A stretch of DNA of 22,597 nucleotides from a virus (Duplodnaviria > Heunggongvirae > Uroviricota > Caudoviricetes), in IMG/VR virus record IMGVR_UViG_2874933748_000003; one strand, written 5' to 3'. Under the pieces are notes generated by a model. The model worked only from the letters and a program-made list of their open reading frames with translations, had not been told where the DNA came from and made no database searches. Of this stretch, positions 13,924 to 15,203 are shown piece by piece; position 1 is the first letter of the stretch, and each line of letters begins with the position of its first letter. A program made the position numbers and the translations under genes.

Positions 13924-14016
13924 AAAAAGAACAAATGGTAGTGTCCGCTATTGCCAGTACACCTCACACTCTATCCAACAAACCACCCACAGTTAATCGG
14001 AATAAAAGCAGAGTGC

Positions 14017-14089
14017 TTATGAATGATCGCACGCCCGAAGGTTAGTATTTCTGCACAGCAATTTTGCAAAAAAAGGCGATCATTCATAA
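14017..14089. repeat. Perfect 14-bp inverted repeat TTATGAATGATCGC / GCGATCATTCATAA with a 45-bp spacer
   Basis: Arms at 14017-14030 and 14076-14089, in the 180-bp stub between the tRNA cluster and IS600 copy D. Confidence 0.6.
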
Positions 14090-14148
14090 CTTAAACGTCT
14101 TTCAGTCACTCCGGGATTTCCCATCATCGCAGACTGAAAGACTCTGAC

Positions 14149-14223
14149 TGGAGCGGGCAGCGGGAATCGAACCCGCATCATCAGCTTGGAAGGCTGAGGT
14201 AATAGCCATTATACGATGCCCGC
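14149..14223 (-). tRNA. tRNA-Gly (anticodon UCC)
   Basis: Reverse complement GCGGGCATCGTATAATGGCTATTACCTCAGCCTTCCAAGCTGATGATGCGGGTTCGATTCCCGCTGCCCGCTCCA; acceptor stem pairs, anticodon loop CTTCCAA, encoded CCA. Confidence 0.85.
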
Positions 14224-14226
14224 ATA

Positions 14227-14302
14227 TGGTGCCGACTACCGGAATCGAACTGGTGACCTACTGATTACAAGTCAGTTGCTCTGCCTGCTGAGCTAAGTCG
14301 GC
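14227..14302 (-). tRNA. tRNA-Thr (anticodon UGU)
   Basis: Reverse complement GCCGACTTAGCTCAGCAGGCAGAGCAACTGACTTGTAATCAGTAGGTCACCAGTTCGATTCCGGTAGTCGGCACCA; anticodon stem ACTGA/TCAGT, loop CTTGTAA. Confidence 0.85.
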
Positions 14303-14304
14303 GC

Positions 14305-14381
14305 TGGCCCACCACCGAGGACTCGAACCTCGCACCGTCAACTTAGAAGGTTGATGCTCTATCCGGATGAGCTAGTGGTGG
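14305..14381 (-). tRNA. tRNA-Arg (anticodon UCU), with an unusual C1-G72 start to the acceptor stem
   Basis: Reverse complement CCACCACTAGCTCATCCGGATAGAGCATCAACCTTCTAAGTTGACGGTGCGAGGTTCGAGTCCTCGGTGGTGGGCCA; anticodon stem TCAAC/GTTGA, loop CTTCTAA. Confidence 0.8.
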
Positions 14382-14382
14382 T

Positions 14383-14459
14383 TGGTGGCCCTTGCTGGAC
14401 TTGAACCAGCGACCTGGCGATTATGAGTCGCTCGCTCTGACCAACTGAGCTAAAGGGCC
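14383..14459 (-). tRNA. tRNA with anticodon CAU, probably Ile2 (lysidine) type rather than elongator Met
   Basis: Reverse complement GGCCCTTTAGCTCAGTTGGTCAGAGCGAGCGACTCATAATCGCCAGGTCGCTGGTTCAAGTCCAGCAAGGGCCACCA; anticodon arm GCGACTCATAATCGC resembles E. coli ileX-type tRNAs as I recall them. Confidence 0.8.
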
Positions 14460-14546
14460 GGAGGCAGAATAATAACCATATGTCATCACATCTGCAAACT
14501 CATCTGACCACCAGCACGTTTAACGTCCTGTGCCGTTTTTCAGGTA

Positions 14547-14570
14547 TAAAAAAACCCGCATAAAGCGGGC
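14547..14570 (-). terminator. Strong intrinsic terminator between the Q-like gene and the tRNA cluster (candidate tR-prime)
   Basis: Minus strand reads GCCCGC-TTTAT-GCGGG followed by TTTTTTTATACC, about 80 nt downstream of the Q stop codon. Confidence 0.65.
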
Positions 14571-14648
14571 TCTTTCAAATGTCCATGTCTGCTATTCGCC
14601 TCGCGGTACAGCTTTGCGAAGCGTACAAGAATTGAAGCAGTTTTTACG

Positions 14649-15203
14649 TCAAAAAGCAATAACTTTTTTCTCTATACCAAAAGCCATAACCATTGGTTTG
14701 TACAAAATAAATTCTGCCACCTTTAGCCAATGCTCAATGCGTCTTTCACAGGTTCTTAAACTCCATTTCGGGTGTGCATCATTCAGCAGTTCAGCCATTT
14801 TGCGTTTGGTCATCCCCCGCCCCTCATACCGTTGCCGAAGGACGCTAATCAATCCTGGATGCTCTGCCAGCACCTCACTTATGACCCGATCAATACATAA
14901 CGCCTCTGCATCAGTACAATGCGCCAGCCAGCTCTTTTGCTTACCGTTAATCATATCCCGCAAAAAAGCCTCAAGTTCAGACTTGTTCAGACCTGCTTTT
15001 TTCATCCTCCGGAGCGCCTCGTTAATTGCCGTTTTTGTCAGCTTTTTAGAGGTCAACATCAGGTTAAACATATTCCCCGTCTTACCGCCACCAATATACG
15101 ACCAGCGCCCCCACATACGTAGTTTTCCCTGAATCCAGACACTTTCCAGCGTGGTGAGACGAAGGTGTTCTCCGCTTTTTCCTGTATTCGTTGGGTAAAT
15201 CAT
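14649..15203 (-). CDS. Late-gene antiterminator Q-like protein (QuuD/phage-82 type)
   Basis: ATG at 15203 preceded by AAGGAGGG; W-G-x-W motif near the N-terminus (LRMWGRWSY); position just upstream of a terminator and tRNAs; start overlaps the stop of the upstream gene (ATGA). Confidence 0.6.
   Translation of the reverse strand: MIYPTNTGKSGEHLRLTTLESVWIQGKLRMWGRWSYIGGGKTGNMFNLMLTSKKLTKTAINEALRRMKKAGLNKSELEAFLRDMINGKQKSWLAHCTDAEALCIDRVISEVLAEHPGLISVLRQRYEGRGMTKRKMAELLNDAHPKWSLRTCERRIEHWLKVAEFILYKPMVMAFGIEKKVIAF

What the first reader, a model, noticed from the sequence alone, without database searches (positions are those of the whole stretch)
13967..15203. Stx-phage-like Q / tR-prime / tRNA late-control cassette whose downstream cargo slot is occupied by IS600
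The order Q-like antiterminator, strong intrinsic terminator, then tightly packed tRNA genes on the late strand is the layout that lambdoid Stx phages use immediately upstream of their toxin moron and lysis genes. Here only ~180 bp of unique sequence follows the last tRNA before IS600 copy D. Everything that should lie between this point and the 3-prime end of H is missing, including any toxin or moron, the lysis and terminase genes, the head genes and most of H. This looks like the footprint of an IS600-mediated loss of a cargo and morphogenesis block.
Basis: partly seen in the sequence, partly recalled or inferred. Interest (0 to 1): 0.7.

Follow-up and report, generated by a model that had tools for sequence, protein, structure and literature searches.

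The report
IS600-truncated prophage late-gene control region
This is the leftover late-gene switch (Q-like antiterminator, terminator, four tRNA genes) of a decayed lambda-like prophage, probably in Shigella, cut off from its lysis and head genes by an IS600 insertion and a deletion of about 15 kb; this is ordinary prophage decay, and nothing indicates that a toxin was lost.

Summary
On the minus strand lie a 184-aa DUF1133 protein (remote homologue of antiterminator Q21), a strong hairpin plus U7 terminator, four tightly packed tRNA genes, 182 bp of unique DNA, then IS600.

The "cargo slot" reading does not hold. The 182 bp is the first part of a 292-bp tRNA-to-holin spacer. In uninterrupted relatives the holin start codon comes 110 bp past the IS600 site. 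These include an E. coli prophage with a 100% identical spacer and the complete phage PhiR47_1. About 520 of 5,426 E. coli genomes carry this contiguous arrangement.

One genome (CP061367.1) carries the same prophage with IS600 at the same site. There it has a 3-bp GTG target duplication, and holin, lysozyme, Rz and a DUF1441 gene still follow, with no toxin.

The loss of the lysis-to-H block is supported. Only the last 112 of about 1,021 tape-measure residues remain. Against PhiR47_1, 14.7 kb is missing. IS600 copy D has no matching target duplication, as expected after recombination between IS600 copies.

More distant DUF1133-Q prophages do carry toxins in this slot (Rac-SA53 eplBA; a Salmonella pertussis-toxin-like gene). 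The general idea is therefore sound, but it does not apply to this lineage. The finding is ordinary and already known in kind.

The parts
15490..16089 (-). DUF1367 gene (PHROG: NinB/Orf-like recombination mediator), first gene of the conserved DUF1367-YbcO-Q trio
   Evidence: Pfam DUF1367 2.9e-96; PHROG 319 at 7e-70. The same trio is found in relatives.
15200..15490 (-). YbcO / DUF1364 putative nuclease gene
   Evidence: Pfam YbcO 7.7e-45; PHROG 131 HNH endonuclease 1.7e-42.
14649..15203 (-). Q-like late-gene antiterminator candidate (DUF1133, 184 aa; stop codon TGA at 14651-14649)
   Evidence: Pfam DUF1133 2e-107 and Phage_antitermQ 29.4 bits, above the cutoff of 26. Family profile against PDB: only Q21 (6P18, 6JNX), E 5e-5. 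hhalign against the Q of Stx2c phage 2851: probability 93.7%, E 1.8e-7, 136 columns. PHROG 753 'anti-termination protein Q-like' 9e-80. It sits where two other Q types sit in front of the same tRNA-holin module.
14631..14659 (-). Candidate late promoter (pR'-like): TTGCTT, 17 nt, TTCAAT, overlapping the end of the Q-like gene. Weak and inferred only.
   Evidence: Read from the sequence. The spacing is kept as TTGATT-17-TTCAAT in phage 683R6 and strain STK77-E, and as TTGATT-17-TATCTT in Rac-SA53 (alignment). It falls below the threshold of the consensus scan.
14547..14577 (-). Intrinsic terminator in the tR' position: 13-bp stem, 5-nt loop, U7
   Evidence: Fold of -18.4 kcal/mol, z -5.3. An equivalent hairpin with a different sequence occurs in relatives.
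14469..14498 (-). Promoter-like site TTTGCA-18-TATTAT, 10 nt upstream of the first tRNA. Its function is untested.
   Evidence: Consensus scan, 9 of 12 matches. The number of sites found in the region is no higher than in shuffled sequence.
14383..14459 (-). tRNA with anticodon CAT, probably the tRNA-Ile2 type that reads AUA
   Evidence: ARAGORN; Rfam 70.5 bits. NCBI annotates it as tRNA-Ile in a 99% identical copy. It is 88-90% identical to the tRNA-Ile of Stx2 phages.
14305..14381 (-). tRNA-Arg (TCT)
   Evidence: ARAGORN; Rfam 56.4 bits.
14227..14302 (-). tRNA-Thr (TGT)
   Evidence: ARAGORN; Rfam 69.8 bits.
14149..14223 (-). tRNA-Gly (TCC)
   Evidence: ARAGORN; Rfam 64.9 bits.
13967..14148 (-). 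First 182 bp of the 292-bp tRNA-Gly-to-holin spacer, cut by IS600 at a GTG. Strongly structured as RNA.
   Evidence: 100% identical to the spacer in E. coli CFSAN029787, where the holin starts 292 bp after tRNA-Gly. Sequence continuity is seen in L005. Fold z -4.1.
12706..13966 (+). IS600 copy D, full length (TGAGG...CCTCA ends). Its orfB is split into two ORFs and it has no matching target duplication.
   Evidence: 99.1% identical to annotated IS600. Its flanks are AAG (inside another IS600) and CAC. The same insertion in L011 has a GTG/GTG duplication.
12227..12705 (+). Partial IS600 (first 479 bp), same orientation, abutting the H remnant
   Evidence: Repeat families D1 and D5; pairwise comparison of the copies.
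11887..12226 (-). 3' remnant of the tape-measure gene H (last 112 codons plus stop)
   Evidence: tblastn 97.3% over 112 aa to H of PhiR47_1, mEp460 and others. H is 1,021 aa in PhiR47_1.

Best explanation
This is the promoter-proximal end of the late operon of a lambda-like prophage that has been eroded by insertion sequences. The source is probably a Shigella genome.

**How the intact phage would work (inferred from the lambda, phage 21 and Stx phage paradigm).** The DUF1133 protein, a distant relative of Q21, would load onto RNA polymerase at a late promoter just past its own gene. That would make the polymerase resistant to termination. Transcription would then pass the hairpin-U7 terminator, the four tRNA genes and a second terminator. 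It would continue into holin, lysozyme, Rz and the packaging, head and tail genes. The four tRNAs read AUA, AGA, ACA and GGA. They are the only cargo between Q and the holin in this lineage.

**What happened here.**
1. IS600 inserted at a GTG in the tRNA-to-holin spacer, 110 bp before the holin start codon. This state is shown in a sister copy of the same prophage.
2. Recombination with a second IS600 lying in the same orientation in gene H removed about 14.7 kb, from the rest of the spacer through the first ~900 codons of H. That second IS600 had itself been hit by a further IS600 insertion. This step is inferred.

What remains is a Q/terminator/tRNA stub joined through 1.4 copies of IS600 to the 3' end of H and the tail-tip genes M, L, K, I and J.
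For: **Anatomy.**

**Q homology.** Pfam Phage_antitermQ scores above its cutoff. Q21 structures are the only significant PDB matches. hhalign gives 93.7% probability. PHROG calls the protein Q-like. It is positionally equivalent to two other Q types that sit in front of the same tRNA-holin module.

**No cargo in this lineage.**
- L005 reads ...GGATAGAGTGCTTTCC... straight on to the holin ATG, 110 nt after the GTG.
- L019 has a 100% identical spacer followed by the holin.
- The complete phage PhiR47_1 has the four tRNAs, a 291-bp gap, then S.
- CFSAN029787 carries the same DUF1133 cassette, then tRNAs, holin, lysozyme, Rz and terminase.
- 517 E. coli genomes have the spacer and 522 have the contiguous tRNA-spacer-holin stretch.

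**Insertion came before deletion.** L011 matches the window at 99.7-99.9% in window 1-1444 and 13151-17194. It has IS600 at the same base with a GTG target duplication, and holin, lysozyme and Rz behind it.

**Deletion.** Copy D has no matching duplication. Only 112 aa of H remain. Against PhiR47_1 the gap is 14,707 bp.

**The junction is real.** It appears as a single alignment at 99.86-99.9% in three other complete assemblies, L006, L010 and L014.
Against: - Antitermination by a DUF1133 protein has not been shown in anything I could find. One paper calls it Q by HHpred only (PMC8136144).
- The late promoter is a weak consensus match and was not found by the scan.
- AlphaFold models were too poor to test the fold (pLDDT 43 and 53).
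- I could not see an intact H with IS600 in it, so the second IS600 and the recombination step are inferred.
- I could not check whether the missing block survives elsewhere in the source genome.
- One assembly (L007) shows a 255-bp rather than a 479-bp partial IS600. The exact IS600 tandem therefore varies between strains or is hard to assemble.
Confidence: 0.85

Rival explanations
1. A toxin or other moron once lay between the tRNA genes and the lysis genes, as stx does in Stx phages, and it was lost together with the lysis and morphogenesis genes when IS600 acted.
For: - The slot is used for cargo in more distant phages with the same type of Q. Rac-SA53 (Q 69% identical) has the pertussis-like toxin genes eplBA between Q and the holin, and LT-IIa after the endolysin.
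- A Salmonella locus (Q 80% identical) has an ORF6N protein and a pertussis-toxin-S1-like gene there. Other loci have a STAND-like ATPase, a ClpP-like protease or a TolA-C domain protein.
- Stx2c phage 2851 has Q, three tRNAs, then stx2.
- The literature describes this synteny for artAB, LT-II and Stx (PMC9732031).
Against: - The 182 bp left in the window is the start of a spacer that runs straight into the holin gene in every relative examined, including one with 100% identity.
- The same prophage with the same IS600 insertion (L011) has holin, lysozyme, Rz, two small ORFs and a DUF1441 gene, and no toxin.
- The genome counts for the spacer and for the contiguous spacer-holin stretch are nearly equal, 517 against 522.
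- No Stx-named phage among 50,697 records has a DUF1133-type Q at E <= 1e-5.
Confidence: 0.04
2. IS600 copies mediated an inversion or translocation, and the block from holin to the 5' part of H still exists elsewhere in the same chromosome, next to another IS600.
For: - Copy D lacks a target duplication, which fits any recombination between IS600 copies.
- The window holds four full-length-range IS600 copies plus one partial copy, and two IS1 copies.
- The same protein occurs at several places in single genomes (L011 and L012 lie in one chromosome).
Against: - Both IS600 copies at the junction have the same orientation. Recombination between direct repeats gives deletion, not inversion.
- The sister copy L011 shows a different loss, from a DUF1441 gene to the tail fibre gene, also bounded by IS600. 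This fits serial deletions.
- I could not search the source genome for the reciprocal junction.
Confidence: 0.07
3. The junction, in particular the 1.4-copy IS600 tandem, is an assembly artefact of repeated IS600 sequence.
For: - L007 has a 255-bp instead of a 479-bp partial copy.
- The IS600 copies differ by small indels that break orfB in copy D. These could be homopolymer sequencing errors.
Against: - Three other complete chromosomes (L006, L010, L014) give the same structure over 4.2 kb as one alignment at 99.86-99.9%.
- L008 has the same structure with an extra IS2-like insertion.
- The unique flanks on both sides are unambiguous.
Confidence: 0.03

Closest known systems
Late-gene control region of lambdoid Stx phages (933W type, phage 2851): Q, pR', tR', tRNA genes, stxAB, S-R-Rz
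   Same: - The order is the same: antiterminator gene, terminator, packed tRNA genes, then lysis genes, all on one strand.
- The CAT and Arg-TCT tRNAs are 88-90% identical to the Stx phage tRNA-Ile / tRNA-Arg.
- The Q-like protein is a remote homologue of the Q21-type Q carried by phage 2851.
   Different: - There is no stx or any other gene between the tRNAs and the holin in this lineage.
- There are four tRNAs (Ile2-type, Arg, Thr, Gly) rather than Ile, Arg, Arg.
- Q is the DUF1133 type. That type was not found in any Stx-named phage record, although one survey lists 13 Stx prophages with it (PMC8136144).
Rac-like lambdoid prophages with DUF1133-type Q, for example Rac-SA53 of LT-II enterotoxigenic E. 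coli (KU052037; Jobling 2016, known to me only by citation in PMC5917428)
   Same: - The same DUF1367 (irsA), ybcO, Q gene trio. Q is 69% identical and a hok/sok module lies upstream.
- The same integration region: the sister loci place this prophage next to a gene I take to be ttcA, the Rac site. That gene name and the attachment site are my reading from memory, not tested.
   Different: Rac-SA53 has toxin genes (eplBA) instead of tRNAs after Q, and LT-IIa after the endolysin. The window lineage has tRNAs only and has lost the lysis genes.
Complete phage PhiR47_1 (PV340566) and related inducible E. coli lambdoid phages
   Same: - The same four-tRNA array and spacer (95% identity over 510 bp).
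- The same type of holin and the same H-M-L-K-I-J tail module (93% over 5.2 kb).
- It serves as the yardstick for what is missing: 14,707 bp.
   Different: Its Q is an unrelated 250-aa type (PHROG 127). It carries no IS elements.
Defective Stx prophage of Shigella dysenteriae type 1
   Same: A lambdoid prophage in Shigella that is reduced to a fragment, with IS600 lying just upstream of the late-region cargo (PMC7819885).
   Different: That remnant keeps stx and sits at another chromosomal site (between sapC and ychK). This one has no toxin gene. By comparison with sister loci it lies next to sitABCD.

Membership tests
Q-type late-gene antiterminators (Q21 family, Pfam PF06530) | Sequence or profile homology to characterised Q proteins | tested here: met
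   PF06530 scores 29.4 bits against a cutoff of 26. A profile of 28 family members matches only Q21 in the PDB, E 5e-5. hhalign against the phage 2851 Q gives 93.7% probability over 136 columns, with an extra segment of about 30-45 residues here.
Q-type late-gene antiterminators (Q21 family, Pfam PF06530) | Gene lies directly upstream of a late promoter, a terminator and the lysis genes | tested here: met
   The terminator lies about 70 nt past the stop codon. In uninterrupted relatives the holin, lysozyme and Rz follow on the same strand. Two other Q types occupy the same place in front of the same tRNA-holin module.
Q-type late-gene antiterminators (Q21 family, Pfam PF06530) | Identifiable late promoter with a Q-binding element and a sigma-dependent pause site | tested here: inconclusive
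   Only a weak TTGCTT-17-TTCAAT site is present. Its spacing is conserved in relatives but it falls below the scan threshold. No binding element could be defined.
Q-type late-gene antiterminators (Q21 family, Pfam PF06530) | Q21-like three-dimensional fold | tested here: inconclusive
   AlphaFold models have pLDDT 43 and 53. Foldseek against the PDB gave nothing below E = 2.
Q-type late-gene antiterminators (Q21 family, Pfam PF06530) | Demonstrated read-through of terminators in the presence of the protein | not testable with these tools
   I found no experimental paper on DUF1133 / PF06576.
Stx-converting phage late region | Order of Q, terminator, tRNA genes on the late strand, with tRNAs homologous to those of Stx phages | tested here: met
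Stx-converting phage late region | stxAB (or another toxin operon) between the tRNAs and the holin | tested here: not met
   No such gene is in the window. Relatives that share the spacer go straight to the holin. The same prophage with the same IS600 has none.
IS600 (IS3 family) | Sequence identity to IS600 with TG...CA ends | tested here: met
   99.1% identity to an element annotated as IS600. The ends are TGAGGTAGCC...ACACCTCA.
IS600 (IS3 family) | 3-bp target-site duplication at a simple insertion | tested here: met
   The duplication is GTG/GTG at the same site in L011, against a single GTG in uninterrupted L005. It is absent around copy D in the window, as expected after recombination. 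Copy B has AAC/AAC.
Intrinsic (factor-independent) terminator | G+C-rich hairpin directly followed by a U run | tested here: met
   CCCGC/GCGGG core within a 13-bp stem, followed by U7. Free energy -18.4 kcal/mol, z -5.3.
tRNA genes | Cloverleaf scored by ARAGORN and the Rfam tRNA model | tested here: met
   Four genes scoring 56-70 bits against a threshold of 29.

The most novel reading that the evidence does not exclude
The Q/terminator/tRNA stub may not be mere debris. It could be kept because the four tRNAs help translate A+T-rich acquired genes, such as those of the Shigella invasion plasmid. The four tRNAs read AUA, AGA, ACA and GGA, codons that are rare in E. coli (from general knowledge, not tested here). 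They would be expressed in the absence of phage induction from the promoter-like site between the terminator and the first tRNA (14498-14469).

Nothing here tests this. The array is intact in all five sister loci of this prophage, but a paralogous copy has an IS inserted in the first tRNA. The promoter-like site is no better than chance.
Probability: 0.08. Interest if true: 0.4.

Novelty: already known. Interest (0 to 1): 0.12.

Why it matters
It matters little beyond annotation. The region should be labelled as the truncated late-control end of a defective prophage linked to sitABCD, not as the footprint of a lost toxin.

It is a clean, fully reconstructable example of how IS600 dismantles prophages in Shigella. 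The steps are insertion, then alternative deletions in different lineages.

It also shows that the same tRNA-holin module is driven by three unrelated or distantly related Q types. That is good positional evidence that DUF1133 proteins are late-gene antiterminators, which appears never to have been tested experimentally.

Tried and rejected
- **Consensus terminator scan on the window.** It found nothing at 14577-14547. Folding shows a strong hairpin with U7, and the scan does find the equivalent in L005. I treat the miss as a quirk of the tool.
- **AlphaFold of the Q-like protein.** I ran it alone and with 28 homologues of 72-89% identity. pLDDT was 43 and 53, which is unusable. Foldseek against the PDB gave no match below E = 2. 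The homologue search returned only close relatives among its best 120, so the alignment was shallow.
- **Literature.** "DUF1133" gave one paper, which makes an HHpred-based Q call. "PF06576" gave none. Jobling 2016 (PMC4957749) is not held.
- **Shared nested insertion.** I considered that L011 and L008 share a nested IS inside IS600 copy D, which would have complicated the order of events. The insertions are different elements at the same spot. From memory of their end sequences they look IS911-like and IS2-like. They are therefore independent events.
- **Stx phages with this Q.** I considered that the Q-like gene might be shared with Stx phages. tblastn against 50,697 phage records found 32 records, none of them Stx-named.
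- **Source organism.** It was not established directly. The 100% identical protein is named from Shigella sonnei, S. flexneri and E. coli.
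Full report
**What is there**

All features lie on the minus strand, reading from high to low coordinates.
- Three overlapping or abutting genes come first: DUF1367 (16089-15490), YbcO/DUF1364 (15490-15200) and a 184-aa DUF1133 protein (15203-14649).
- About 70 nt past the stop codon lies a 13-bp hairpin followed by seven U (14577-14547). Its free energy is -18.4 kcal/mol, z -5.3 against shuffles.
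- After roughly another 90 nt come four tRNA genes separated by 1-3 nt: CAT, Arg-TCT, Thr-TGT and Gly-TCC (14459-14149). ARAGORN and the Rfam tRNA model both find them.
- Then come 182 bp of unique sequence (14148-13967) and the right end of a full-length IS600 (12706-13966).
- A further 479-bp partial IS600 follows in the same orientation (12227-12705).
- Beyond that are the last 112 codons of a lambda-type tape-measure gene H (97% identical to H of PhiR47_1 and mEp460), then M, L, K, I, J and Lom.

The only omission is the extra partial IS600.

**Is the Q-like ORF an antiterminator?**

It is a full-length member of Pfam DUF1133 (2e-107). It also passes the curated cutoff of Phage_antitermQ (29.4 bits against 26). 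Alone, and as a profile of 28 family members, it matches only the solved Q21 structures (6P18, 6JNX) in the PDB, at E 4e-4 and 5e-5. A profile comparison with the Q21-type Q of Stx2c phage 2851 gives 93.7% probability over 136 columns. The DUF1133 protein carries an extra segment after the conserved N-terminal W-x-G-W motif. PHROGs files it under "anti-termination protein Q-like".

There is positional evidence as well. The same tRNA-spacer-holin module lies behind a 126-aa Q in E. coli CFSAN029787. It lies behind an unrelated 250-aa Q in the complete phage PhiR47_1. It lies behind the DUF1133 protein here and in about 77 E. coli genomes.

I found no experiment on this family. One survey calls it Q by HHpred (PMC8136144). 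Structure prediction failed. The late promoter is only a weak TTGCTT-17-TTCAAT match whose spacing is kept in relatives. The Q assignment is therefore well supported by homology and position, but it is not demonstrated.

**Is there an empty cargo slot?**

No. In E. coli STK77-E the sequence after tRNA-Gly matches the window's 182 bp closely. It continues ...GGATAGAGTG CTTTCCTTACTG... for 110 more nt to the ATG of a class II holin. That extra stretch contains a second terminator-like hairpin.

Several relatives show the same thing.
- CFSAN029787 has a 100% identical spacer, and its holin starts 292 bp after tRNA-Gly.
- PhiR47_1, a complete phage, has the four tRNAs, a 291-bp gap, then S, R, Rz, terminase, head and tail genes.
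- A second CFSAN029787 prophage has the same DUF1367-DUF1364-DUF1133 trio (96.5% identity), the tRNA array and the same spacer, then holin, lysozyme and Rz. It ends at sitDCBA.

Among 5,426 complete E. coli genomes, 517 contain the spacer and 522 contain the contiguous tRNA-Gly-spacer-holin stretch.

**The intermediate**

An exact-protein look-up found the same Q-like protein in many chromosomes. Five loci (L006, L007, L008, L010, L014) are the same locus as the window. In them the prophage sits next to a helicase gene (dbpA-like by its Pfam domains) and a PF01171 (ATP_bind_3) gene. I read these as dbpA and ttcA, the Rac attachment region, from memory of the E. coli map. Three of the five (L006, L010, L014) reproduce the whole 4.2-kb junction as one alignment at 99.86-99.9%.

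A sixth locus, L011 (CP061367.1), is the same prophage. It matches window 1-1444 and 13151-17194 at 99.7-99.9%. It has IS600 at exactly the same base, but there IS600 is flanked by a 3-bp GTG duplication. It is followed by the remaining 110 bp of spacer, holin, lysozyme, Rz, two small ORFs and a DUF1441 gene. Another IS600 then joins that to the side tail fibre gene.

IS600 therefore inserted first. Different lineages then lost different blocks between IS600 copies. L011 also shows directly that this prophage had no toxin between the tRNAs and the DUF1441 gene that precedes the terminase large subunit in PhiR47_1.

**The deletion**

IS600 copy D has no matching target duplication. One flank is the interior of another IS600 and the other is the GTG site. 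The simplest history has three steps:
1. IS600 inserted in the spacer.
2. A second IS600 in H was itself hit by a further IS600 at position 479.
3. Recombination between the two directly repeated full copies removed the DNA between them.

Measured against PhiR47_1, which matches both flanks, the missing segment is 14,707 bp. It comprises the rest of the spacer, S, R, Rz, terminase, portal, head genes, Z, U, V, G, T and the first ~900 codons of H. I could not exclude that the block was moved rather than lost, because the rest of the source genome is not available. The direct orientation of the copies favours deletion.

In more distant prophages with a DUF1133-type Q, the interval between Q and the lysis genes is often filled.
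- Rac-SA53 has the pertussis-like toxin genes eplBA there, and LT-IIa after the endolysin.
- A Salmonella enterica locus has an ORF6N protein and a pertussis-toxin-S1-like gene.
- Enterobacter, Buttiauxella and S. flexneri loci have a STAND-like ATPase, a ClpP-like protease and a TolA-C domain protein.
- Stx2c phage 2851 shows Q, three tRNAs, then stx2AB.

Only 3 of 30 loci from species representatives have tRNAs after Q. The slot is real for the family. In this lineage its content is the tRNA array itself.

**Verdict**

The phenomenon, IS-driven decay of lambdoid prophages in Shigella, is well known (for example the defective Stx prophage of S. dysenteriae 1 with IS600 upstream of stx; PMC7819885).

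The source is most likely Shigella. The identical protein is named from S. sonnei, S. flexneri and E. coli, but the organism was not established directly.

Noticed in passing
window 1-824, with L011 19300-20555 and L052 431-4704: The window's left end matches L011 up to the base before an ABC-3 family permease gene. A search with that stretch shows the gene annotated as sitD in E. coli relatives, and in CFSAN029787 sitABCD lies next to the DUF4376 and tail-fibre genes of a prophage with the same Q cassette. The Sit iron/manganese transporter, just outside the window, looks like the real non-phage cargo of this prophage.
   Followed up: partly
window about 13151-13155 (inside IS600 copy D); L011 12055-13303; L008 12055-13385: Two different insertion sequences are inserted at the same spot inside this IS600 copy in two other genomes. 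By their end sequences, recognised from memory, they look IS911-like (L011) and IS2-like (L008). This suggests an insertion hot spot.
   Followed up: partly
window 12227-13966; L007 12502-12756: The tandem of a 479-bp partial IS600 and a full IS600 shares a 3-nt TGA at the junction. One assembly (L007) has only 255 bp of the partial copy. Either the strains differ or the tandem is hard to assemble.
   Followed up: no
window 17435-17609 (minus strand): A complete sok antisense RNA (Rfam RF01794, 118 bits) belonging to a hok/sok killer module lies between the two IS1 copies (16425-17194 and 19941-20710). The segment between the IS1 copies is missing in L011, which has a single IS1.
   Followed up: no
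window 13967-14148 (minus strand): The retained spacer folds into three long hairpins (-61.4 kcal/mol, z -4.1; no shuffle folded as well). Its role is unknown. It may be processing signals for the tRNA transcript.
   Followed up: no
L004 20185-20256 and L052 29189-29259: In two E. coli relatives the fourth tRNA is the same gene as the Gly-TCC tRNA here, but with anticodon TAC (annotated tRNA-Val) and a 1-nt deletion in the 3' acceptor region. It is either an anticodon-switched or a decaying tRNA.
   Followed up: partly
window 14149-14459: All four tRNAs read A-ending codons (AUA if the CAT tRNA is the Ile2 type, AGA, ACA, GGA). A promoter-like site (TTTGCA-18-TATTAT, 14498-14469) lies between the terminator and the first tRNA, so expression without Q is conceivable but untested.
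   Followed up: no
window 3293-4552: IS600 copy B is a simple insertion with an AAC/AAC target duplication that truncates the side tail fibre gene (the phage_tail_N ORF 4966-5334 is only 122 aa). A further inverted copy, truncated by about 87 bp at one end, lies at 1445-2619.
   Followed up: no
L025 8128-8889; L031 6721-8109; L035 7294-8202; L022 7586-8011: Between a DUF1133-type Q and the lysis genes, other species carry varied cargo. Examples are a pertussis-toxin-S1-like gene (Salmonella), a 463-aa STAND-like ATPase (Enterobacter), a ClpP-like SDH protease (Buttiauxella) and a TolA-C domain protein (S. flexneri).
   Followed up: partly
L013 and L015, 11057-11734: Two E. coli prophages with a 100% identical Q-like protein and the same four tRNAs have a different, 679-bp spacer before the holin, with no called gene. 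The tRNA-Gly end is therefore a mosaic boundary.
   Followed up: no
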